Shown here: in pieces, positions 1-27,227 of the stretch
How the letters are laid out: each line of letters starts with the position of its first letter
How positions within the stretch are numbered: the stretch's first letter is position 1
Source: Escherichia coli
GTDB lineage: Bacteria > Pseudomonadota > Gammaproteobacteria > Enterobacterales > Enterobacteriaceae
DNA length: 64,000 nucleotides
Direction: 5' to 3' (one strand)
Assembly: GCF_013122565.1 (NCBI RefSeq)
Contig: NZ_CP053258.1
Translations under genes and position numbers: made by a program
Notes under the pieces: generated by a model
Told to the model about the DNA's origin: nothing
Database searches by the model: none
Seen by the model: only the letters and a program-made list of their open reading frames with translations

Positions 1-92
1 GGCAGACAAAAGACAAAGCTACCGCACATAACCACCCACCGGGGTTACGCCATTTATTCACTGTAATTTCCTTTAAACTCAAATAATAAAAA

Positions 93-117
93 CCGGCCTG
101 GCTATTTGCCGGGCCGG
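93..117 (-). terminator. Rho-independent terminator downstream of hcp
   Basis: Minus-strand hairpin CCGGCCCGGCAAATAGCCAGGCCGG followed by TTTTTATT, immediately 3' of the hcp stop. Confidence 0.6.
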
Positions 118-128
118 AAAAGTACTGC

Positions 129-620
129 TTAAATTTCTTTATTGGCCTTGAAGTCGTAGCCTGCGGTGATGGTGCCGCCGCTGCCACCTTGCTGGTTCTG
201 CACCACGTATTCCTGCTTCACGGTGCTGAAAGAGAGTTCGACCATTTCACGGGAGGCAATCTCCCCTTCCTTGCTGCCACTGGGAGATACAACAGCCACA
301 ATAAGGTCAGTGAAGGTATATTTGAGATATTCCAGCGGATTGCCGCCTGCTTTACGCATGGTCAGCACAGCTTTCGGAATGTGTTTGCCGGAGGCGCAGT
401 ATTTGAACAGGTTAGGACTGGCACGATCGATATAGTGGTCAAAGTCCAGGTTGGTCACGGAGACTTTACCGGATCCCAGGCCACTGCCCGCGTGCATGGT
501 GGACTCCTGGTGAATATTCCAGCGCCAGCTCAGCACCTCAATTTCATTTTTATGTTTGTCATCCATTGACTCGCCGTCAATGCCGTCAATTTTCAGAAAA
601 ATGTCATAAGCCATTTTCAT
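129..620 (-). CDS. hcp: T6SS tube protein Hcp (TssD)
   Basis: 163-aa ORF, ATG start; recognisable Hcp1-family sequence (MKMAYDIFLKIDGIDGES...); sits in a T6SS gene cluster. Confidence 0.93.
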   Translation of the reverse strand: MKMAYDIFLKIDGIDGESMDDKHKNEIEVLSWRWNIHQESTMHAGSGLGSGKVSVTNLDFDHYIDRASPNLFKYCASGKHIPKAVLTMRKAGGNPLEYLKYTFTDLIVAVVSPSGSKEGEIASREMVELSFSTVKQEYVVQNQQGGSGGTITAGYDFKANKEI

Positions 621-831
621 TTCCTTATTAAGAATTACTTAAAATAATCTCTGGTTTATCTTCGCATCTGAATTCAGGTAAACCATAGCCGTACAGAACC
701 TCCTCTCCTTAATTTAAGAAGAACAGAAGGCTCTATATTTTTCAGAACTTAAGTACCAGACAGAAAATCATTCACGAAATAAATGTTTATCAATTATATA
801 TAGTTAACTGATAACATATTCTACTGGACTT

Positions 832-1287
832 TCATTCACATATTAAAGATACGGGTTTCTCCCTTGGTGGTTCATCGAAATAAAGAGTCTTACAGGAATG
901 AGTATTTACAGGTACTGGCTGAGATAACCAGACCAGTCCGTAGCTATAAATACAGGAAAACCAGTATCTGTCGCTCTCTTTCGCTGTCGCGCCTTCTGTA
1001 TTCCATATCAACCATGTTTCCTGTTTTATTTTTTTCATCTCTGGCTTCTGATCGCCAAAATTTTCCGGTTTATCCTGTGTGACACTAATATGCGTTAACC
1101 ACTGACGAGGCTCCTGCCGTGGGGAAACTCTCCATTGCGGCTGGACAAATGATTTCAGAACCGCGGTGTAAGGCTCCGTTTCAACAAAAACAGGACAAGT
1201 AACTTCCCATGCCGACACATTTTGTGCATAAAACAAGGCAACACCAGAAAGAAGCAATACAGGAAAGCGCATCATCGTACCTTCCAT
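832..1287 (-). CDS. Exported cysteine-containing protein; candidate T6SS immunity protein
   Basis: 151 aa; N-terminal Sec signal peptide (MMRFPVLLLSGVALFYAQNVSA/WE); 4 Cys in mature part; start ATG overlaps upstream stop (TAATG); located between the putative effector and hcp. Confidence 0.6.
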   Translation of the reverse strand: MEGTMMRFPVLLLSGVALFYAQNVSAWEVTCPVFVETEPYTAVLKSFVQPQWRVSPRQEPRQWLTHISVTQDKPENFGDQKPEMKKIKQETWLIWNTEGATAKESDRYWFSCIYSYGLVWLSQPVPVNTHSCKTLYFDEPPREKPVSLICE

Positions 1288-1670
1288 TATTCAATTACAT
1301 AAAATGCTTCAGCATTACTGCTGGCGCTGGGATACGAACCGTCAGAGTTTGCTCCGCCTTTCGGTCTGAGTTGATGTTTTTCGATTCTGATCTGCGTTCT
1401 CCACTGATCCATAACCCAGATCCCTCGTTTATCCTGCCCCAGATAGAATGCAGCATGATTACCTGAACTCCTGCCAGGCCATCGCCCATTAAAAAAAGTG
1501 GCAATAGCGGTACCTTTTGGAATGGTGGTGTCCCCCCACACTTTCTTACCCGCACGCCATGTTGCTGTGGAGCCAAGATGTGCATACCTTTTAACCAGAG
1601 TTACACACTCACCATCCCCCACTAATGGCTGCCCCTGTAATAAATCCACTGATTCATAAACTCGCGACAT
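1287..1670 (-). CDS. Candidate T6SS amidase effector, papain-like (CHAP/NlpC-P60-type) fold
   Basis: 127 aa, no signal peptide; GECVTLVKRY motif (Cys22), GNHAAFYLG (His72), downstream Asp88/Gln89, spacing typical of CHAP/NlpC-P60 Cys-His-polar triads; SD GAGGG upstream; coupled to the downstream exported protein. Confidence 0.6.
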   Translation of the reverse strand: MSRVYESVDLLQGQPLVGDGECVTLVKRYAHLGSTATWRAGKKVWGDTTIPKGTAIATFFNGRWPGRSSGNHAAFYLGQDKRGIWVMDQWRTQIRIEKHQLRPKGGANSDGSYPSASSNAEAFYVIE

Positions 1671-1709
1671 GTTATTGCCCTCTGATGTTACGCAGAATCC
1701 TTAGATGTA

Positions 1710-3224
1710 TCAGGCATTACCCTGTTTTACCGACGGCAGTTTTGTGACCAGACGCAGTGATCCTGTTAACCCTTCAAGCTGAAAATGCGGGCGCAGGAAG
1801 AATTTGGCATCGTAATAACCCGGATTACCTTCCACCTCTTCCACCACCACTTCGGCTGCTGCTAGTGGGCGACGAGCTTTGGTTTCCTGTGAGGAGTTCA
1901 CCGGATCGGCATCGACGTAGTTCATGATCCACTCATTGAGCCAGCGCTGCATATCTTCACGCTCTTTGAACGAGCCGATCTTGTCGCGCACGATACATTT
2001 GAGGAAGTGCGCAAACCGTGAACAGGCGAAAAGATATGGCAAACGAGCTGAGAGATTAGCGTTGGCCGTAGCGTCCGGATCGTAATATTCCTGCGGTTTT
2101 TGCAGCGACTGTGCGCCAATAAAGGCGGCATAATCGGAGTTTTTGCGGTGGATCAGCGGGATAAAACCGTTTTTGGCCAGTTCAGCTTCACGGCGATCAG
2201 AGATGGCAATTTCCGTCGGGCATTTCATATCCACGCCGCCGTCATCGGTCGGGAAGGTATGACAGGGTAGATTTTCCACCGCGCCACCAGATTCAACACC
2301 ACGGATCAACGTACACCAACCGTAATGTTTGAAAGAACGGTTGATATTTACACCCATTGCATAGGCGGCATTGCTCCAGACATATTTGCTGTGATCTGCG
2401 CCATCCGCATCTTCTTCAAAATCAAACTCATCTACAGGGTTTGTTTTCGCACCATAAGGCAAACGGGAGAGGAAACGTGGCATCGTCAGGCCAATGTAGC
2501 GAGAATCCTCACTTTTCCGCAGCGAGTTCCACGGTGCGTATTCGAGGTTTTGGGTCACAATTTTGGTCAAATCACGCGGGTTAGCCAGTTCCTGCCAGGA
2601 GTCCATCTGCAACACTGACGGAGAGGCCCCGGCAATAAACGGCGCATGGGCTGAGGCTGCTACTTTGGCAATGGAACCGAGCAGATCCACATCCGGTGGC
2701 GTGTGATCAAAATAATAATCCGCAATAATACAACCGTAAGGTTCTCCACCTAACTGTCCATATTCAGCTTCATACAGCTTTTTGAACATGGGGCTTTGAT
2801 CCCAGGCTATCCCTTTGTAACGTTTCATATTTTTCCGCAATTCATCCTTCGAAAGGTTCATAAAGCGGATTTTTAATTTTTCATCGGTTTCAGTGTTGTA
2901 AACCAAATGTTCCATCCCACGCCAGGAGGACTCCAGTTTCTGAAATTCCGGATGACTCAGGATGAGTTTGATCTGCTCGGTTAATTTGAAATCAATCTGC
3001 TCAATAATCGCAGCAATACTTTTATAAGCGTCGTCACTGACGGTGACGGTATTTGTCAGAGCCTGTTGGGCCAGCGTCTGAACTGCTGCCTCAACAGCCT
3101 TTGCTGCCTGAGGTGTCTTGGGACGGAAGGCTTTATCCAGGAGCGAATCAAATTCAGTGTCCTGATAGGCAGTGGTTTGCGCAGCAGAGAGATCGCCAGT
3201 CGCCAGAAGAGTATCGTTTACCAT
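1710..3224 (-). CDS. tssC: T6SS contractile sheath large subunit TssC (VipB/ImpC)
   Basis: 504-aa ORF with recognisable TssC sequence; immediately downstream of tssB. Confidence 0.95.
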   Translation of the reverse strand: MVNDTLLATGDLSAAQTTAYQDTEFDSLLDKAFRPKTPQAAKAVEAAVQTLAQQALTNTVTVSDDAYKSIAAIIEQIDFKLTEQIKLILSHPEFQKLESSWRGMEHLVYNTETDEKLKIRFMNLSKDELRKNMKRYKGIAWDQSPMFKKLYEAEYGQLGGEPYGCIIADYYFDHTPPDVDLLGSIAKVAASAHAPFIAGASPSVLQMDSWQELANPRDLTKIVTQNLEYAPWNSLRKSEDSRYIGLTMPRFLSRLPYGAKTNPVDEFDFEEDADGADHSKYVWSNAAYAMGVNINRSFKHYGWCTLIRGVESGGAVENLPCHTFPTDDGGVDMKCPTEIAISDRREAELAKNGFIPLIHRKNSDYAAFIGAQSLQKPQEYYDPDATANANLSARLPYLFACSRFAHFLKCIVRDKIGSFKEREDMQRWLNEWIMNYVDADPVNSSQETKARRPLAAAEVVVEEVEGNPGYYDAKFFLRPHFQLEGLTGSLRLVTKLPSVKQGNA

Positions 3225-3248
3225 GAAAGTTCCTTAATAAAATCGCAG

Positions 3249-3794
3249 TTAGTCTGCTGTTCCCGTTTCACCTGATAAGACACTTTCCTGTTGAGCGACA
3301 GGTTTTGGCGCACTGGCCAGAGCTTTCAGTAACGTAGGGTCTTGTAATAGTTTGTTGATAAGATTTTCTGCTCCCGCTTTACCATCCATATACGTTTGTA
3401 GGTTGGCAAGCTGAGTACGCGCTTCCAGCAGCTGGTTCAGGGCATCCACCTTACGGGCAATCTGCGCAGGCGAAAAATCGTCCATATTCTCCAGCGTGAT
3501 ATCGACCATTAACTGCCCTTCGCCCGTCAGCGTATTGGGGACAGCAAACGCCACGCGCGGCGCAATGGCTTTCATCCGCTCGTTGAAGTTATCGATATCA
3601 ATATCAAGGAATTTACGATCGGTGACCGGTGGCAGCTCTTCGCGAGGTTTACCGGCCAGATCGGCCAGCACCGCCATGACAAACGGCAGTTCGATTTTTT
3701 TCTCGGAGCCGTAAATCTCAACGTCATACTCAATCTGCACGCGGGGCGCACGGTTGCGGGCAATAAACTTCTGCGCGCTATTGTTGATAGCCAT
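3249..3794 (-). CDS. tssB: T6SS contractile sheath small subunit TssB (VipA/ImpB)
   Basis: 181-aa ORF with recognisable TssB sequence (…RVQIEYDVEIYGSEKKIELPFVMAVLADL…). Confidence 0.95.
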   Translation of the reverse strand: MAINNSAQKFIARNRAPRVQIEYDVEIYGSEKKIELPFVMAVLADLAGKPREELPPVTDRKFLDIDIDNFNERMKAIAPRVAFAVPNTLTGEGQLMVDITLENMDDFSPAQIARKVDALNQLLEARTQLANLQTYMDGKAGAENLINKLLQDPTLLKALASAPKPVAQQESVLSGETGTAD

Positions 3795-3855: not shown

Positions 3856-4146
3856 TTAAAAATCATACGCAGAGAGTATTTTTATAATCTCTTTGTTTTC
3901 TTTGTACTTTTCCCGCAGCACAGGGAGTGATTTCTTCGCTGGAGGACACCAGGTATCAACCCCCTTTTCGATGTCTCTTTTATCCTTCTCTGGTAAAGAA
4001 CTGTCCCATTCACCAGCAAGATGCTGGCACATTTCCGCATTACTCAGAAAATGCTGCACATCCTGTGGTAAAGACGGTTCCCCCTGAGCACAGAAAGCGA
4101 ACATCATTAACAGGAATGTCCACAACACCGGATAACGAAATGTCAT
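3856..4146 (-). CDS. Small exported protein of unknown function (T6SS-embedded)
   Basis: 96 aa; hydrophobic signal peptide (MTFRYPVLWTFLLMMFAFCAQG/EP); charged Lys/Glu-rich mature region with 2 Cys; sits between clpV and tssB. Confidence 0.55.
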   Translation of the reverse strand: MTFRYPVLWTFLLMMFAFCAQGEPSLPQDVQHFLSNAEMCQHLAGEWDSSLPEKDKRDIEKGVDTWCPPAKKSLPVLREKYKENKEIIKILSAYDF

Positions 4147-4148
4147 AC

Positions 4149-4352
4149 TTAATGTCCATCAATTGACCAGTGCATGAGATATGCTCTAGCGGGAGGGCGA
4201 TATGTTGCAGAGATACTGACCCTTGCACGCGCATTACCAAGCGCGCGCAAAAAATTATCTACCGATACACGAAAAGTCCCCTGCAAATCATTGGTGGAAG
4301 AACTTCCAGGAAAGCGACTGACCCACAGCGCGCCACTTAATTCTTTTTCCAT
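4149..4352 (-). CDS. Hypothetical small protein (67 aa), uncertain
   Basis: ORF fills the gap between clpV and the 96-aa ORF; GGAG about 9 nt upstream of ATG; stop 2 nt before the next ATG; contains rare Arg codons, no recognisable motif. Confidence 0.25.
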   Translation of the reverse strand: MEKELSGALWVSRFPGSSSTNDLQGTFRVSVDNFLRALGNARARVSISATYRPPARAYLMHWSIDGH

Positions 4353-4364
4353 AAGGATGCTCCA

Positions 4365-6998
4365 TTAATCCGTTTCAAAAATAATCTGTTCATCCTCATC
4401 AACACGAATGCGGATTTGCGTGATGGCCGTTTTCTCTGTCATCGCCTGCAACCAGTAACGGGACAGTTGTGGGAGGATATGTTGTTCGATATAGCCGATG
4501 AGCAAACGAGCGCCGGTTTCGTGCATCGGGCAGCGCGACACAATATGCGTAATCAATTCATCGCCATACACCAGTGAAACGCCATGCTGCTCCGCCATCC
4601 GATCCATCAATCTGCCAAGATGCAGGCGGGCAATAACACCACGCGCGGTCTCATCCAGCGGTAAATAAGGAATAACCGTCACACGCCCCAGGAAAGCCGC
4701 CGGGAAGTGTTTACGTAACTCCGGCATTAACGCCTCTTTTAATCCTGCCGAATCAGGCATCAGCGCCGGATCCTCACAGAGCTGGCTGATAAGTTCCGCT
4801 CCCGCGTTAGTAGTCAACAACAGCGTGGTATTTTTGAAATCGATGTGGACACCTTCGCCATCTTCCATCGCCCCCTTATCAAACACCTGGAAGAACAGCT
4901 CGTGGACGTCGTGATGGGCTTTTTCAATTTCATCCAGCAATACCACGCTCCAGGGATGGCGGCGTACCGCTTCTGTCAACACGCCGCCTTCGCCATAACC
5001 CACGTAGCCGGGCGGTGCGCCTTTCAGCGTGGAAACGGTGTGGGACTCCTGAAACTCGCTCATGTTGATGGTGATCAGGTTCTGCTCACCGCCATAGATA
5101 GCCTCTGCCAGCGCCAGAGCGGTCTCAGTCTTGCCAACACCGGACGGCCCGGCCAGCAAAAAGACGCCCACAGGCTTACGCGGGTCACCTAAACCCGCCC
5201 GCGCGGTCTGGATACGCTCGCCAATCTGCGCCAGCGCGTCCCTCTGCCCGGTAACACGCTGCGCCAGACGGGCGGGCAGTTCCAGGATCTGACTGGCCTC
5301 ATCTTTCACCATGCGTCCGGCGGGAATACCGGTCCAGTCGGAGACAATCTCTGCCACCACGGTTGCACTGACTTCCGGGTACACGACGGGGTTTTCACCC
5401 TGCCAACCTCTTAATGCCGTTTCTGCCTGTTGTAGAGTGATTTCGTCGCGCTCGCCGGGCTCTGCGCCGCGTTGCTCGTGTAAACTGCGAACCAACTCCA
5501 GTTCCTGCTGCCACCGCGCTTCGGTGTCAGAAAGATCGGCATTCAGCGATATAATCCGCGCCGCCAGTACATCGCCCCGCTCCGAGCGGATACCCATTTT
5601 TTCCTGCTTTAATAACAACTCCTGCTCCAGTTCGGCAGCGTTGAGCTGCTGGCGCAGATACTGGACTCTCGCAGGCGGGGTATGCAGCGACAGCGCTACA
5701 CGGGCCGCCGCCGTATCCAGCAGGCTGATGGCCTTATCCGGTAGTTGCCGGGACGGAATGTACCGGTGAGAAAGCTGTACCGCGGCGCGCACGGCCTCAT
5801 CAAGGATCAGGACGTCATGGTGTTTTTCAAGCGTGGTGACTAACCCGCGTACCATCTCAACAGCCGCAACCTCTTCTGGCTCAGCAACCTGCAATACCTG
5901 AAAACGCCGGGTCAGCGCCGGATCCTTTTCGATATGGCGTTTGTACTCGCTCCAGGTAGTTGCGCCGATGGTGCGCAGGGTTCCACGCGCCAGCGCCGGT
6001 TTCAGCAGGTTGGCAGCATCCCCCGTACCGGATGTACCACCAGCGCCCACCAGCGTGTGAACTTCATCAACAAAAAGGATCACCGGCTGCGGCGAGCGCG
6101 CGGCCTCTTCCAACAACGCTTTCAGGCGGGATTCAAATTCACCCTTCATGGACGCCCCTGCCAGCAGCGCTCCAACATCCAGTGACAGCAACCGCACGTT
6201 ACGCAGTGAAGGCGGTACTTCCCCCCCGGCAATCGCCAGCGCGAATCCTTCCACCACTGCCGTTTTCCCGACTCCCGCCTCGCCGGTCAGCAGCGGGTTG
6301 TTCTGGCGACGGCGCAGCAGAATATCCGTCATAGTACGGATCTCGTGTTCGCGACCGGTGACCGGATCGATATTGCCTTCACGGGCCAGCGCAGTCATGT
6401 CCTGGCAGTATTTCGCCAGCGCGGATTTGCTTCCGGTTGATTCGCCGGCAAAGACCTGGCTAGCTTCCCCCGGTACTGCAGAATTTAAATCCGAGCCGTC
6501 ATAAGGCATTTCTGTTAATTCAGGAGATGAAGTGATTAAAGACGGAAGAATATCTAATAGTTCATCTACCGGTAGCTCTGCCAATGGCGCACAAATATTT
6601 TTTAACACCCGACACAATTCTGGCGTGGTTAACCAGGCAAGTAATAACCATCCACTACGAATTTTTTGATCGCCAAAGCGGATACTTGCCAACATCCAGG
6701 CTTTTTCAACAGAAAGATCGATATGATGGGAAAAATCGTTAATTACACTCGCTCCGGCAGGCAATATATTCAATTGCTGAATTAACGCCTTCTCAACATC
6801 AGCAGATGTTATTTGATAATGTCGAAGCACATTGTGAATGTCATTCTCTGGTTGTTGTATTAACTGATGCAACCAATGTGTCAGTTCGACATAAGGATTA
6901 GCGCGTAATTTACAGAACGTTGTCGCAGATTCCAAAGATCTAAACAAAGATTTGGTTAGCTTTCCATATAGTGCACTGCGCGAAACAGGAGTGTCCAT
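4365..6998 (-). CDS. clpV: T6SS AAA+ ATPase ClpV (TssH)
   Basis: 877 aa; two Walker A motifs (GEAGVGKT, GPSGVGKT); ClpB-like architecture without a long middle domain; T6SS context. Confidence 0.95.
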   Translation of the reverse strand: MDTPVSRSALYGKLTKSLFRSLESATTFCKLRANPYVELTHWLHQLIQQPENDIHNVLRHYQITSADVEKALIQQLNILPAGASVINDFSHHIDLSVEKAWMLASIRFGDQKIRSGWLLLAWLTTPELCRVLKNICAPLAELPVDELLDILPSLITSSPELTEMPYDGSDLNSAVPGEASQVFAGESTGSKSALAKYCQDMTALAREGNIDPVTGREHEIRTMTDILLRRRQNNPLLTGEAGVGKTAVVEGFALAIAGGEVPPSLRNVRLLSLDVGALLAGASMKGEFESRLKALLEEAARSPQPVILFVDEVHTLVGAGGTSGTGDAANLLKPALARGTLRTIGATTWSEYKRHIEKDPALTRRFQVLQVAEPEEVAAVEMVRGLVTTLEKHHDVLILDEAVRAAVQLSHRYIPSRQLPDKAISLLDTAAARVALSLHTPPARVQYLRQQLNAAELEQELLLKQEKMGIRSERGDVLAARIISLNADLSDTEARWQQELELVRSLHEQRGAEPGERDEITLQQAETALRGWQGENPVVYPEVSATVVAEIVSDWTGIPAGRMVKDEASQILELPARLAQRVTGQRDALAQIGERIQTARAGLGDPRKPVGVFLLAGPSGVGKTETALALAEAIYGGEQNLITINMSEFQESHTVSTLKGAPPGYVGYGEGGVLTEAVRRHPWSVVLLDEIEKAHHDVHELFFQVFDKGAMEDGEGVHIDFKNTTLLLTTNAGAELISQLCEDPALMPDSAGLKEALMPELRKHFPAAFLGRVTVIPYLPLDETARGVIARLHLGRLMDRMAEQHGVSLVYGDELITHIVSRCPMHETGARLLIGYIEQHILPQLSRYWLQAMTEKTAITQIRIRVDEDEQIIFETD

Positions 6999-9568: not shown

Positions 9569-11452
9569 ATGGATCCACGGCTACTGGAATACTACAACCG
9601 CGAACTGAGCTATCTGCGGGAAACGGGAGCCGAATTTGCCGCCCGTCATCCCAAAGTCGCCGCCCGGCTGGGCATGCAGGGAACGGATATTGCCGATCCG
9701 TATGTGGAGCGGATGGTCGAAGCCTTCAGCTTCCTGACCGCCCGCACGCAGCTAAAAATTGACGCTGAATTCCCTCGTTTCACCCAGCGCCTGCTGGAAG
9801 TGGTCAGCCCCAATTACGTCACACCCACGCCCTCAATGAGCGTGGCGCAGTTGCATCCCGATACGGAAGAAGGCGATCTGGCAAAAGGATTTACCGTCCC
9901 GCGCGACACGGCCTTTTTCTCCGCCATTCCGGAAGGCGAAAGCACTGCCTGCCAGTTTCGCAGCAGCCAGGATGTAACGCTGTGGCCGCTCGCCATCGAA
10001 GAGGCGCGACTGACCGCCGCGCCGCCGGATATGCCTGCCCTGCACCGCTACCTGCCGGCCAACATTCACGTCGCCGGGGCGCTGCGTATTACCCTGCGCA
10101 CCTTTGGTGAACTAACGTTCAGTCAGCTTGCCGGACTGGACAGGCTGCCGTTTTATCTCTGCGGCGAGGAGCGTACGGCCTCACACCTGTTCGAACTTCT
10201 ACATACCAGCGCCATCGCGACCCTGGCTGGCATTCCGGGACATTTTGACGGCGCGTTGGATGTGAATCTGCAACAGCCCGTTATGTACGAAGGCCTGGAG
10301 CCGGATCAGGGGCTGCTGCCGCTGGCGTGGAACGTGTTTCACGGTCATAACCTGCTGCATGAATATTTTGCCTGTCCGGAACGCTTCTATTTTTTCACCC
10401 CGACAGGCCTGTCTGCCGGATTACAGAAAATTGACGGTGGCGTGGCGGAGATTGTTATCCTGCTGAACCGCCTGCCGCCGGACTGGCTGATCCACCAGAC
10501 AAATACGGCACAGTTCAGCCTGTTCTGTACCCCGGTTATCAACCTGTTTCCCCGCGTCACCGCCCGGATCGATGTCACGCACAGCACGACGGAACAGCAT
10601 CTGGTGGTGGACAGAACCCATCCGCTGGATTATGAGGTGTTCTCGGTCCAGGAAGTGGAAGGGCTGGAAACCGACACCACACGGAAGATGGCCTTTCGCC
10701 CGCTCTACCACACCCGCAATAACGATGAAGGCAATCACGGGCGTTATTTTTCCCTGCGCCGGGAGCCGCGCCGCTTATCAGAAAACGCCCGCCGTTACGG
10801 TACCCGTACTCCCTATACGGGATCAGAAGTGTTCCTGTCGCTGGTTGACCAGTATGAAGCGCCGTACCCGGAAAATCTGCGCCACATCACCATCACGGCC
10901 ATGATCACTAACCGCGATCTGCCCTGTCTTATTGCCCGCAATGGCCGGGACGATCTAACCGTGGATGCGGCCATCCCGGTGGCGGGCGTAGGGCTTATCC
11001 GCCCGCCACGCTCGCCGCAGCCCCCGCTGGCTGAACGTGAGATGGCATGGCGGTTGATCCGCCAGTTATCTTTTAATTATCTGCCGCTGGCCGATCTGGA
11101 TCACCGTACCGGCGGCCAGGCGTTGCGAGATCTGCTGAACCTGTTTATTCCTGCTCATGACAGTCCGCAATCGCGCCAGGTGCGCAGCCTGATTGGTTGT
11201 AAAACGACCCCGGTCACCCGCCGTCTGCCCGGTTCCGGACTACTGGTCTATGGGCGTGGCGTCAGTTGTGAACTGACGGTGGATGAAGAAGGTTTTTCCG
11301 GCATCAGTCCGTATCTGTTCGGCCTGGTGCTGGAACACTATATCGCCCGCCATGTTTCCATTAATACCTTCTCGCAGATGACGCTGCACAGCATGCAGCG
11401 TGGCAAAATTATGACCTGGCCTGTCAGGGCGGGACAGCGGGGAAGCGTATGA
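9569..11452 (+). CDS. tssF: T6SS baseplate protein TssF (ImpG)
   Basis: 627 aa; recognisable TssF sequence; stop overlaps tssG start (ATGA). Confidence 0.92.
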   Translation: MDPRLLEYYNRELSYLRETGAEFAARHPKVAARLGMQGTDIADPYVERMVEAFSFLTARTQLKIDAEFPRFTQRLLEVVSPNYVTPTPSMSVAQLHPDTEEGDLAKGFTVPRDTAFFSAIPEGESTACQFRSSQDVTLWPLAIEEARLTAAPPDMPALHRYLPANIHVAGALRITLRTFGELTFSQLAGLDRLPFYLCGEERTASHLFELLHTSAIATLAGIPGHFDGALDVNLQQPVMYEGLEPDQGLLPLAWNVFHGHNLLHEYFACPERFYFFTPTGLSAGLQKIDGGVAEIVILLNRLPPDWLIHQTNTAQFSLFCTPVINLFPRVTARIDVTHSTTEQHLVVDRTHPLDYEVFSVQEVEGLETDTTRKMAFRPLYHTRNNDEGNHGRYFSLRREPRRLSENARRYGTRTPYTGSEVFLSLVDQYEAPYPENLRHITITAMITNRDLPCLIARNGRDDLTVDAAIPVAGVGLIRPPRSPQPPLAEREMAWRLIRQLSFNYLPLADLDHRTGGQALRDLLNLFIPAHDSPQSRQVRSLIGCKTTPVTRRLPGSGLLVYGRGVSCELTVDEEGFSGISPYLFGLVLEHYIARHVSINTFSQMTLHSMQRGKIMTWPVRAGQRGSV

Positions 11453-13630: not shown

Positions 13631-13707
13631 TGGCGGAACGGACGGGACTCGAACCCGCGACCCCCTGCGTGACAGGCAGGTATTCTAACCGACTGAACTA
13701 CCGCTCC
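13631..13707 (-). tRNA. aspV: tRNA-Asp (GTC)
   Basis: Reverse complement matches the E. coli tRNA-Asp sequence including encoded CCA. Confidence 0.97.
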
Positions 13708-21854: not shown

Positions 21855-21931
21855 TGGCGGAACGGACGGGACTCGAACCCGCGACCCCCTGCGTGACAGG
21901 CAGGTATTCTAACCGACTGAACTACCGCTCC
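21855..21931 (-). tRNA. aspU: tRNA-Asp (GTC), distal tRNA of rrnH operon
   Basis: Identical 77-nt tRNA-Asp sequence as at 13631-13707; downstream of 5S rRNA. Confidence 0.97.
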
Positions 21932-22122: not shown

Positions 22123-22242
22123 ATGCCTGGCAGTTCCCTACTCTCGCATGGGGAGACCCCACACTACCATCGGCGCTACGGCGTTTCACTTCTGAGTTCG
22201 GCATGGGGTCAGGTGGGACCACCGCGCTAAGGCCGCCAGGCA
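22123..22242 (-). rRNA. rrfH: 5S ribosomal RNA
   Basis: 120-nt reverse-complement match to E. coli 5S rRNA. Confidence 0.97.
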
Positions 22243-22335
22243 AATTCTGTTTCATCAGACCGCTTCTGCGTTCTGATTTAATCTGTATCAGGCTGAAAAT
22301 CTTCTCTCAATCCGCCAAAACATCTTCGGCGTTGT

Positions 22336-25239
<2,904 letters not shown>

Positions 25240-25422
25240 TCACAACCCGAAGATGTTTCTTTCGACTCATCATCGTGTTGCGAAAATTTGAGAGACTCAC
25301 GAACAACTCTCGTTGTTCAGTGTTTCAATTTTCAGCTTGATCCAGATTTTTAAAGAGCAAAACTTCGCAGTGAACCTTTGCAGGTACACTCTGAAGTATT
25401 TTTTATTTAATCACTACAGAGA

Positions 25423-25498
25423 TGGTGGAGCTATGCGGGATCGAACCGCAGACCTCCTGCGTGCAAAGCAGGCGCTCTCCCAGCTGAGCTATAGCCCC
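25423..25498 (-). tRNA. alaV: tRNA-Ala (TGC), rrn spacer tRNA
   Basis: Reverse complement matches E. coli tRNA-Ala(UGC). Confidence 0.97.
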
Positions 25499-25540
25499 AT
25501 AACATGTAGTTAAAACCTCTTCAAATTTGCGGTGCAAATT

Positions 25541-25617
<77 letters not shown>

Positions 25618-25685
25618 GTAGAGGTTTTACTGCTCATTTTCATCAGACAATCTGTGTGAGCACTACAAAGAACGCTTCTTTAAGG

Positions 25686-27227
<1,542 letters not shown>

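What the first reader, a model, noticed from the sequence alone, without database searches (positions are those of the whole stretch)
3856..4352. Two tightly packed small ORFs between clpV and tssB, one encoding an exported 96-aa protein
The 218-bp gap after clpV is filled by a 67-aa ORF (GGAG upstream), whose stop lies 2 nt before the ATG of a 96-aa ORF with a clear signal peptide and a Lys/Glu-rich mature domain with two Cys. Neither resembles a core T6SS component I recognise. They could be an accessory or orphan immunity module, or the 67-aa ORF may be noncoding leader sequence.
Basis: seen in the sequence. Interest (0 to 1): 0.5.

Follow-up and report, generated by a model that had tools for sequence, protein, structure and literature searches.

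The report
Disarmed T6SS toxin, retained immunity gene
The two small ORFs between clpV and tssB are a decayed toxin-antidote pair: the 67-aa ORF is what remains of a 187-aa cell-wall-cutting toxin gene after a clean 360-bp in-frame deletion, and the exported 96-aa protein is most likely its still-intact periplasmic immunity protein.

Summary
Both ORFs exist as described, on the minus strand: 67 aa at 4149..4352 and 96 aa at 3856..4146. The 67-aa ORF is not a gene in its own right. It is a 187-aa gene that has lost 120 codons between two copies of CACTGGTCA. The intact gene sits at this position in 108 of 5426 complete E. coli genomes, and the same deletion junction occurs in 7.

The 187-aa protein models confidently (pLDDT 92.7) as a LAS/M15-type zinc peptidoglycan peptidase. 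Its best structural matches are Ply500, LysB4, VanY, VanX and ChiX, and it carries invariant H-x6-D and D-x2-H motifs. The deletion removes nearly all of these residues.

The 96-aa protein has a signal peptide and a three-helix mature domain with two invariant Cys. It evolves under purifying selection. It follows the peptidase gene directly in Escherichia, a Salmonella-type locus, Pectobacterium, Intestinirhabdus, Rosenbergiella and Dechloromonas. In two betaproteobacteria the peptidase follows a PAAR gene.

I read the pair as a T6SS effector-immunity module whose effector was disarmed while the immunity gene was kept. Salmonella, a metagenome contig and Citrobacter carry different deletions of the same gene. 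The published Salmonella "32-aa L-Ala-D-Glu endopeptidase effector" is one such remnant. No toxicity, secretion or protection has been tested. This is an ordinary kind of system with a tidy evolutionary story.

The parts
4149..4352 (-). 67-aa ORF. It is the remnant of a 187-aa LAS/M15-like peptidoglycan peptidase (putative T6SS effector) gene after an in-frame 360-bp (120-codon) internal deletion. It keeps residues 1-60 and the last 7 residues. It lacks H88, H120, D127 and D178.
   Evidence: Alignment to full-length E. coli alleles. tblastn of the 187-aa protein against the window matches only residues 1-63 and 181-187.
4164..4172 (-). The single remaining copy of CACTGGTCA, which marks the deletion junction. 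In the intact gene the two copies lie at gene positions 181 and 541.
   Evidence: The exact junction is found in 7 of 5426 complete E. coli genomes.
4360..4363 (-). GGAG Shine-Dalgarno sequence of the remnant ORF (the former effector gene), 7 nt before its ATG and 3 nt after the clpV stop.
   Evidence: Read directly from the sequence.
3856..4146 (-). 96-aa exported protein, the putative cognate immunity protein, intact here. Its ATG lies 2 nt after the remnant's stop codon.
   Evidence: It lies immediately downstream of the peptidase gene in six genera. pN/pS is 0.1-0.25. The AF2 model has a three-helix mature domain with pLDDT above 90.
4081..4146 (-). Codons 1-22 of the 96-aa ORF, a Sec-type signal peptide (MTFRYPVLWTFLLMMFAFCAQG|EP).
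   Evidence: Hydropathy maximum of 2.05 at residues 6-20. AF2 gives a low-confidence N-terminal helix at residues 6-20. Homologs in Pectobacterium (LLSGC) and Intestinirhabdus (LLSC) have sequences that look like lipoboxes at this position; the lipobox reading rests on my own knowledge of the consensus.
4365..6998 (-). clpV/tssH (877 aa), the upstream neighbour in the same transcription direction.
   Evidence: ORF list. Annotated as tssH in near-identical E. coli loci.
3249..3794 (-). tssB (181 aa), the downstream neighbour, 61 nt after the stop of the 96-aa ORF.
1710..3224 (-). tssC (504 aa), following tssB.

Best explanation
The interval holds a degenerate type VI secretion effector-immunity module. 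The ancestral operon was clpV, then a 187-aa effector, then a 96-aa immunity gene, then tssBC. The effector is a cytoplasmically made LAS/M15-type zinc peptidase with no signal peptide. I infer that the T6SS delivers it into a neighbour's periplasm, where it cuts peptidoglycan stem peptides. The exact bond is unknown; by analogy with the nearest folds it could be L-Ala-D-Glu. The 96-aa protein is exported by Sec to the producer's periplasm, and I infer that it binds and blocks incoming toxin from sister cells. In this window a deletion between two 9-bp direct repeats removed 120 codons, including the metal-binding and catalytic residues. The strain therefore cannot make this toxin but still makes the antidote, so the immunity gene is an orphan. 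The deletion is in frame. It keeps the effector's ribosome-binding site and start codon, and it keeps the stop codon 2 nt before the immunity ATG. Translation of the 67-aa remnant may therefore still drive coupled translation of the immunity gene, but this last step is inference only. Shown here: the deletion, the fold and motifs, the synteny, and the purifying selection. Inferred: T6SS delivery, toxicity, neutralisation and translational coupling.
For: Deletion. The window's 570-bp interval aligns to 930 bp in most relatives. The missing 360 bp lie exactly between two copies of CACTGGTCA, at gene positions 181 and 541, which is one of the two longest repeats in the gene. The full segment is present in 108 of 5426 complete E. 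coli genomes and the junction in 7.

T6SS link. The gene lies inside the T6SS cluster in Escherichia and in Salmonella-type loci. It lies directly after PAAR genes in Ralstonia and Dechloromonas. It has no hydrophobic N-terminus.

Immunity. A homologous ORF of about 96 aa with a signal peptide or a lipobox-like sequence lies immediately downstream of the peptidase in Escherichia, the Salmonella-type locus, Pectobacterium, Intestinirhabdus, Rosenbergiella and Dechloromonas. pN/pS is 0.1-0.25. The window's mature immunity sequence is identical to the one paired with an intact effector in strain ETEC1738.

Repeated decay. Different deletions occur in Salmonella (187 to 32 aa), in a metagenome contig (a 61-codon deletion) and in Citrobacter (effector gone, clpV reading into the immunity ATG).

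Prior report. The Salmonella tssH-tssB pair was already proposed as an effector-immunity module (PMC10469887).
Against: No experiment on toxicity, secretion or protection exists for this family in the literature I could search. Sequence profiles do not place the peptidase in Pfam M15 at a significant level: the best hits are PF13539 at E 0.12 and PRK10178 at E 0.024, and a family profile finds no M15 chain in the PDB. The assignment therefore rests on a predicted fold plus motifs. Several effector-immunity copies are stand-alone bicistrons with no T6SS gene within 6 kb. The immunity fold has no known relative, and no effector-immunity complex could be modelled with these tools. In Ralstonia the downstream gene is unrelated to the 96-aa family.
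Confidence: 0.75

Rival explanations
1. The intact 187-aa peptidase is a TagX-like accessory enzyme rather than a toxin. It would open the producer's own peptidoglycan so that the T6SS can assemble. The 96-aa protein would be its periplasmic regulator or inhibitor. The window would then have lost an assembly factor.
For: TagX of Acinetobacter is a T6SS-cluster-encoded, Ply500-like pfam13539 peptidase required for Hcp secretion (PMC5061870). The only Pfam hint for the 187-aa protein is also PF13539, and its best fold match is also Ply500. The gene sits between the core genes clpV and tssB.
Against: TagX has two transmembrane segments that place its domain in the periplasm. The 187-aa protein has no hydrophobic N-terminus, so it has no Sec route to the producer's own periplasm. 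The pair also occurs as isolated bicistrons and next to PAAR genes. It is deleted or absent in many clusters whose neighbouring core genes (clpV, tssB, tssC) remain intact, which does not fit an essential assembly factor.
Confidence: 0.07
2. The peptidase and the small exported protein form a pair unrelated to T6SS delivery. Examples would be a domesticated endolysin-like autolysin with a dedicated periplasmic inhibitor, or a toxin exported by another route. On this view the pair merely landed in the clpV-tssB gap.
For: Stand-alone bicistrons with no T6SS gene nearby occur in Pectobacterium and Intestinirhabdus. The nearest folds are phage endolysins. ChiX, a relative by fold, works in chitinase secretion rather than in T6SS.
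Against: There are three independent kinds of T6SS linkage: inside the cluster in Escherichia, Salmonella and Citrobacter, and after PAAR genes in two betaproteobacteria. The architecture is the standard one for periplasm-acting T6SS cargo effectors: a small leaderless enzyme followed by a small exported partner. Orphan effector-immunity pairs away from the main cluster are common for T6SS (established knowledge, not tested here).
Confidence: 0.1
3. The 67-aa ORF is a functional small protein in its own right, for example a retained N-terminal loading domain that acts as an adaptor or decoy. It would not be mere debris.
For: The ORF is intact, with a good Shine-Dalgarno sequence and start codon. 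PGAP annotates it as a CDS in related genomes. The same deletion is found on at least two flanking haplotypes. Three separate in-frame deletions of this gene are known.
Against: Other lineages keep different and much smaller pieces (32 aa in Salmonella, nothing in Citrobacter), so no common retained domain exists. The remnant is further frameshifted in Escherichia sp. E1V33. The window's copy has two private nonsynonymous changes, A2E and A29V. Three of three in-frame deletions has a chance probability of about 0.04, which is only suggestive.
Confidence: 0.08
4. The interval is a noncoding 5' leader or promoter for tssBC, and the ORFs are fortuitous. Alternatively, the 96-aa protein is a thioredoxin-like redox protein.
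For: Weak matches of the 96-aa protein to thioredoxin, ResA and StoA around the sequence WCPPAKK.
Against: Both ORFs are homologous to conserved protein families. pN/pS is far below 1. No promoter-like or terminator-like site lies on the coding strand, and there is no Rfam hit in the interval. W66, P68 and P69 are not conserved in the family, and there is no second Cys to form a CxxC motif. The model is all-alpha rather than a thioredoxin alpha/beta fold.
Confidence: 0.02

Closest known systems
Salmonella SPI-6 VR1 candidate effector-immunity module 'L-Ala-D-Glu endopeptidase' (unannotated 32-aa ORF plus a downstream signal-peptide ORF between tssH and tssB; Blondel et al. 2023, PMC10469887; also counted across serotypes in PMC11669294)
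   Same: It has the same genomic position (between tssH/clpV and tssB) and the same immunity family, at 80-95% identity. The 32-aa ORF is homologous to the two ends of the same 187-aa gene.
   Different: The window carries a different deletion (120 codons removed, 67 aa left) from Salmonella (155 codons removed, 32 aa left). The published description treats the 32-aa ORF as the effector. The comparison here shows it is a remnant that lacks the H-x6-D metal site. An intact 187-aa version exists in E. coli and in a Salmonella-type locus (L035).
LAS-family (MEROPS M15-like) L-Ala-D-Glu endopeptidases: Listeria phage Ply500, Bacillus phage LysB4, phage T5 endolysin, Serratia ChiX
   Different: There is no significant sequence-profile match. 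About 45 extra residues are inserted between the Arg and the first His. The context is different: a leaderless protein paired with an exported inhibitor, rather than an endolysin or a holin-dependent enzyme. The bond it cleaves has not been determined.
Periplasm-acting T6SS peptidoglycan effector-immunity pairs (Tae1-4/Tai1-4, Tlde1/Tldi1, Tge/Tgi)
   Same: The architecture matches: a small leaderless enzyme gene directly followed by a small signal-peptide gene, inside or near T6SS clusters and in the same variable regions. Other strains carry Tae4/Tai4 just downstream of tssC in this same cluster.
   Different: The catalytic fold differs: a LAS zinc peptidase rather than a papain-like/NlpC-P60 amidase, a YkuD fold or a glycosidase. 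The immunity fold has no solved relative.
TagX of Acinetobacter (T6SS-associated pfam13539 peptidase needed for T6SS biogenesis; PMC5061870)
   Same: Both are LAS/VanY-superfamily peptidases similar to Ply500, and both are encoded in a T6SS cluster.
   Different: TagX has two transmembrane segments and is required for Hcp secretion. The protein here has none, is often deleted, and comes with an exported partner.
Orphan T6SS immunity genes (immunity genes kept without their effector)
   Same: An intact immunity gene under purifying selection sits next to a destroyed or missing effector. This is seen here and in Salmonella, Citrobacter, an Oxalobacteraceae genome and Novacetimonas.
   Different: Here the process can be seen in progress, with dated-looking intermediates: three different in-frame deletions plus one complete loss, all at one locus.

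Membership tests
LAS / MEROPS M15-like zinc peptidoglycan peptidases (applies to the intact 187-aa parent) | Hedgehog/DD-peptidase fold | tested here: met
LAS / MEROPS M15-like zinc peptidoglycan peptidases (applies to the intact 187-aa parent) | Zinc ligands His-x6-Asp plus a distal His, an acidic general base 3 residues before that His, and a conserved Arg | tested here: met
   H120-x6-D127, D178-x2-H181 and R52 are invariant in 28 diverse homologs. The pattern matches ChiX H68/D75, D120/H123 and R47. The correspondence was made by motif spacing, not by superposing coordinates.
LAS / MEROPS M15-like zinc peptidoglycan peptidases (applies to the intact 187-aa parent) | Significant match to a Pfam or NCBIfam M15 profile | tested here: not met
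   PF13539 scores E 0.12 and PF02557 at best E 0.0043 in 1 of 28 members. PRK10178 scores E 0.024, far below its cutoff. A profile search of the PDB finds no M15 chain.
LAS / MEROPS M15-like zinc peptidoglycan peptidases (applies to the intact 187-aa parent) | Zinc-dependent hydrolysis of a peptidoglycan peptide bond | not testable with these tools
   This needs purified protein, sacculi digestion and muropeptide LC-MS.
LAS peptidase (applies to the window's 67-aa ORF itself) | Presence of the metal-binding and catalytic residues | tested here: not met
   The remnant keeps residues 1-60 and 181-187 only. H88, H120, D127 and D178 are deleted.
T6SS antibacterial cargo effector (the intact parent) | Genetic linkage to T6SS core, Hcp, VgrG or PAAR genes | tested here: met
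   The gene lies between clpV and tssB in Escherichia and in Salmonella-type loci. It lies directly after PAAR genes in Ralstonia and Dechloromonas. The linkage is not universal: Pectobacterium and Intestinirhabdus have isolated copies.
T6SS antibacterial cargo effector (the intact parent) | No Sec or Tat signal of its own, together with an adjacent immunity gene whose product is targeted to the compartment where the toxin acts | tested here: met
   The effector's N-terminus is hydrophilic, while the downstream ORF has a signal peptide or a lipobox-like sequence.
T6SS antibacterial cargo effector (the intact parent) | T6SS-dependent secretion and T6SS-dependent killing of non-immune cells | not testable with these tools
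   No experimental report was found.
T6SS immunity protein (the 96-aa ORF) | Conserved co-occurrence immediately downstream of the cognate effector | tested here: met
   Six genera have the pair, with gaps of 0-2 nt or overlaps between the two genes.
T6SS immunity protein (the 96-aa ORF) | Direct binding to the effector and neutralisation of it | not testable with these tools
   The structure tool returns no coordinates or PAE, so no complex could be assessed. Co-expression rescue and pull-down experiments are needed.
Thioredoxin-like oxidoreductases (considered for the 96-aa ORF) | CxxC active site and thioredoxin alpha/beta fold | tested here: not met
   The sequence is WCPPA with no second Cys, and W66, P68 and P69 are not conserved. 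The model is all-helical.
TagX-type T6SS biogenesis peptidase | N-terminal transmembrane anchor that places the peptidase domain in the producer's periplasm | tested here: not met
   The maximum 15-residue hydropathy in the first 40 residues is 0.37. TagX has two TM segments.

The most novel reading that the evidence does not exclude
Disarming this effector may follow a recurrent, constrained path rather than random decay. On this reading, deletions are tolerated only if they keep a translated upstream reading frame that ends at the immunity start codon, because the immunity gene depends on translational coupling. The 9-bp repeat would make the 360-bp deletion a hotspot that has arisen more than once in E. 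coli. Such strains would be 'immune non-aggressors', which keep protection against kin that still fire the LAS peptidase. A bolder variant is that the 67-aa remnant keeps the effector's T6SS-loading region and competes for loading.
Probability: 0.15. Interest if true: 0.5.

Novelty: new member of a known kind. Interest (0 to 1): 0.35.

Why it matters
The finding explains two ORFs that RefSeq annotates as 'hypothetical protein' in E. coli T6SS clusters. It identifies the intact 187-aa gene as the real form of an effector that the Salmonella literature currently lists as a 32-aa protein. It points to a LAS/M15-fold cargo effector and a small helical immunity family with no solved relative, neither of which has been characterised. 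It also gives a clean natural series for studying how strains lose a toxin but keep the antidote: the intact gene, three different in-frame deletions, and complete loss. All of this can be tested with standard periplasmic toxicity, rescue and competition assays. It does not reveal a new kind of system.

Tried and rejected

2. The thioredoxin-like hits of the 96-aa protein were rejected. The WCPP motif is not conserved and the model is all-helical.

3. A fold search with the immunity model found no neighbour (best E = 1.0).

4. The first literature search on 'M15' mostly returned lacZ-deltaM15 strain tables. Searches by protein accession found no paper.

5. Promoter, terminator and Rfam scans of the interval gave no support for a regulatory-RNA or promoter reading.

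6. I tried to decide between a single origin and a recurrent origin of the 360-bp deletion. It occurs on at least two flanking haplotypes, which differ within 95 bp on the 5' side and 85 bp on the 3' side of the junction. Short-tract recombination cannot be excluded with 16 sequences, so this stays open.

7. I considered modelling an effector-immunity fusion. I dropped the idea because the structure tool returns no coordinates or PAE for judging an interface.

8. pN/pS on the 67-aa remnant was not attempted formally, because there are too few substitutions.

Full report
OBSERVATION

The two ORFs exist exactly as described, but on the minus strand.
- clpV/tssH occupies 4365..6998(-).
- A GGAG at 4363..4360 precedes the ATG at 4352 of a 67-aa ORF (4149..4352).
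- The TAA stop of that ORF is followed after 2 nt by the ATG at 4146 of a 96-aa ORF (3856..4146).
- tssB starts 61 nt further on, at 3794.
- The 96-aa protein has a typical Sec signal peptide (MTFR, then a hydrophobic core, then AQG|EP). Its maximum 15-residue hydropathy is 2.05.
- The mature part is rich in Lys and Glu and has two Cys.

WHAT THE 67-aa ORF IS

A megablast of the 570-bp interval against 5426 complete E. coli genomes found it in 117 of them. In nearly all, the match came as two pieces spanning 930 bp. The extra 360 bp belong to a 187-aa gene that RefSeq annotates as 'peptidoglycan-binding domain-containing protein' or 'hypothetical protein'.

The alignment shows that the window lacks exactly 360 bp, which is 120 codons in frame. 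The missing stretch lies between two copies of CACTGGTCA, and only one copy remains, at 4164..4172. The two copies sit at gene positions 181 and 541, and they form one of the two longest direct repeats in the gene.

The 360-bp segment is present in 108 complete genomes. The exact deletion junction is present in 7. The remnant keeps residues 1-60 and the last seven residues. No second copy of the gene exists in the window.

WHAT THE INTACT GENE ENCODES

Sequence profiles are nearly silent:
- Pfam PF13539 scores E 0.12 over 16 residues.
- NCBIfam D-Ala-D-Ala dipeptidase scores E 0.024.
- Nothing in the PDB matches by sequence or by family profile.

The family is nevertheless large, with 304 hits across Enterobacterales and Burkholderiales. 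An alignment of 28 members has R52, P53, H88, H120, D127, D178 and H181 invariant.

The motif pattern R...H-x6-D...D-x2-H matches the zinc ligands and general base described for ChiX (R47, H68, D75, D120, H123) and for Ply500 (PMC5778951). I conclude that the parent is a LAS/M15-like zinc peptidoglycan peptidase. The bond it cuts is not known. L-Ala-D-Glu is a guess based on the nearest folds.

The window's 67-aa product has lost H88, H120, D127 and D178, so it cannot be an enzyme.

WHAT THE 96-aa ORF IS

It has no Pfam family. Its sequence relatives fall into only 47 clusters, from Escherichia, Salmonella and Citrobacter. Synteny is informative:
- In E. coli the gene directly follows the intact peptidase gene.
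- In Pectobacterium wasabiae and Intestinirhabdus alba, a peptidase homolog at about 59% identity is followed within 0-2 nt, or by a short overlap, by a protein of 96-97 aa. That protein shares the motif C-Q-H-[LF]-A-G-E-W-D-S, a second Cys and a C-terminal Y-x-F. Its N-terminus carries a sequence that looks like a lipobox.
- A scan of one genome per species with an alignment of the family found nine loci. tblastn showed the full peptidase immediately upstream in Escherichia sp. MOD1-EC7003, Intestinirhabdus, Rosenbergiella and Dechloromonas.

The family alignment has C40, H42, A44-W47, S49, C67, Y81, Y94 and F96 invariant. The AF2 model of the mature part is a three-helix unit with pLDDT above 90, and it has no structural neighbour in the PDB (best E = 1.0).

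The weak thioredoxin-like matches hinge on WCPP. That motif is not conserved, so I reject them.

pN/pS between the Escherichia, Salmonella and Citrobacter copies is 0.1-0.25, so this is a real gene under constraint. The window's mature sequence is identical to the one paired with an intact effector in strain ETEC1738.

LINK TO TYPE VI SECRETION

Beyond its place between clpV and tssB, the peptidase gene lies directly after PAAR genes in a Ralstonia contig and in Dechloromonas denitrificans. Those PAAR proteins are homologous to each other (E 6e-21) and share a C-terminal extension.

The peptidase has no signal peptide or membrane segment, while its partner is exported. This is the standard layout of periplasm-acting T6SS cargo effector-immunity pairs, and other strains carry Tae4/Tai4 a few kb downstream in the same cluster.

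A Salmonella study already proposed the tssH-tssB pair as an effector-immunity module. It described a 32-aa 'L-Ala-D-Glu endopeptidase' ORF with ChiX similarity plus a downstream signal-peptide ORF, present in 18 of 60 genomes (PMC10469887). A later survey counts it across serotypes (PMC11669294).

M15-like domains have been predicted in other T6SS effectors (PMC12135965 and PMC10210955). The kind of system is therefore known.

DECAY IS REPEATED

- The Salmonella 32-aa ORF reads MPKELSGAQWV|YGVTKFVGGNTDKPHWSIDGH, which is the first 11 and the last 21 residues of the 187-aa protein.
- A Salmonella-type contig (L035) carries the intact 187-aa gene with flanks identical to those of the remnant. 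The published '32-aa effector' is therefore a separate in-frame deletion remnant that lacks the H-x6-D site.
- A metagenome contig (L036) has a third in-frame deletion, of 61 codons.
- In Citrobacter amalonaticus the effector is gone altogether, and the clpV reading frame runs on to end in an ATGA overlap with the immunity start.
- Oxalobacteraceae and Novacetimonas genomes have an immunity homolog with no peptidase nearby.
- Some immunity copies are themselves frameshifted or truncated.

Within E. coli, the 360-bp deletion occurs on at least two flanking haplotypes. The window and five near-identical strains carry private SNPs. Two other strains have flanks identical to intact alleles. The two groups differ within 95 bp on the 5' side and 85 bp on the 3' side of the junction. 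This suggests either recurrence at the repeat or short-tract recombination, and I could not decide between them.

MECHANISM PROPOSED

The ancestral state is inferred from anatomy and family knowledge. The leaderless peptidase is loaded on the T6SS and fired into a neighbour's periplasm, where it cuts peptidoglycan peptides. The exported 96-aa protein, probably stabilised by a C40-C67 disulfide, blocks it in sister cells.

The present state is shown by the sequence. The toxin gene is catalytically dead and the immunity gene is intact, so this strain is protected but does not attack with this toxin.

All three partial deletions are in frame, and all four lesions leave a translated frame that ends at the immunity start. 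This hints that the immunity gene relies on translational coupling. With three or four events the chance probability is only about 0.01-0.04, so this is a lead and not a result.

RIVALS

- A TagX-like assembly peptidase is the most serious alternative, because TagX is also Ply500-like and encoded in a T6SS cluster (PMC5061870). TagX, however, has two membrane anchors and is essential for secretion. This protein has none, is frequently lost, occurs away from T6SS clusters and comes with an exported partner.
- A system unrelated to T6SS remains possible, given the isolated copies.
- The readings 'functional 67-aa protein', 'noncoding leader' and 'thioredoxin-like' are poorly supported. Details are in the rival entries.

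VERDICT

The finding is a new, untested member of a well-known kind of system. It also offers a useful correction to the Salmonella effector catalogue and a neat natural series of toxin loss with antidote retention.

Confidence by claim:
- High (about 0.97) that the 67-aa ORF is a deletion remnant.
- About 0.9 for the LAS fold of the parent.
- About 0.75 for the T6SS effector-immunity function.

Noticed in passing
window 1287..1670 (-) and 832..1287 (-): A second small gene pair lies right after tssC: a 127-aa BPSL0067-family protein (E 7e-48) followed, with a 1-nt overlap, by a 151-aa STY0301-family protein with a signal-peptide-like N-terminus. From memory, this looks like the Tae2/Tai2-type amidase effector-immunity pair of SPI-6 variable region 1. 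Other E. coli strains carry Tae4/Tai4 at this spot, or nothing at all.
   Followed up: partly
L005:1826-1924 and L010:2900-2995 (Salmonella enterica), compared with L035:3501-4064: The '32-aa L-Ala-D-Glu endopeptidase effector' catalogued in Salmonella SPI-6 papers is an in-frame deletion remnant, made of the first 11 and last 21 residues of the 187-aa gene. An intact copy exists in a Salmonella-type contig.
   Followed up: yes
L012, L015, L019 (tssH); L013:3113-4813; L025:4501-6930; L018:967-2448: This T6SS cluster is visibly decaying in several E. coli strains. tssH is frameshifted in VE-T9, 6EVA and 05-3629. In XJ5.2, IS1 and IS256 replace the immunity gene and the rest of the cluster. In ETEC1738, an IS66 element interrupts tssC. 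In 2012C-4221, clpV is truncated to a 493-aa 'AAA family ATPase'.
   Followed up: no
L029:2950-3010 (Citrobacter amalonaticus): The effector gene is completely absent. The clpV reading frame is extended by a few codons and ends in an ATGA overlap with the start codon of the immunity gene.
   Followed up: partly
L007:5105-6053 (Ralstonia contig) and L032:1762-2373 (Dechloromonas denitrificans): PAAR-domain proteins with a shared C-terminal extension of about 70 residues (...ITL-DGR-F-G-TD--G-TQKVSAD...) lie directly upstream of the peptidase homologs and overlap them. This extension may be the loading adaptor for this effector family.
   Followed up: partly
window 13631..13707 (-), 21855..21931 (-), 22125..27227 (-): The T6SS cluster ends next to a tRNA-Asp gene. 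A second tRNA-Asp follows a complete rRNA operon (5S, 23S, tRNA-Ala, tRNA-Ile, 16S). From memory, this fits the aspV / rrnH-aspU region of E. coli.
   Followed up: no
window 11235..11328 (+): ARAGORN calls a 94-nt 'tRNA-His' inside a 627-aa ORF (9569..11452). Rfam's tRNA model does not report it, so it is probably a false positive.
   Followed up: no
L010:3001-3288 compared with L035:4067-4354: The orphaned Salmonella immunity gene differs from the copy paired with an intact effector by 4 nonsynonymous and 0 synonymous changes. Other Salmonella copies are frameshifted (P0161, P0163, P0164). This is a small hint of relaxed constraint after the effector was lost.
   Followed up: partly
window 25247..25355 (-) and 60841..60927 (-): Rfam matches to StyR-44 (in the 16S-23S spacer/23S leader region) and to t44 RNA. 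Both are ordinary for Enterobacteriaceae.
   Followed up: no
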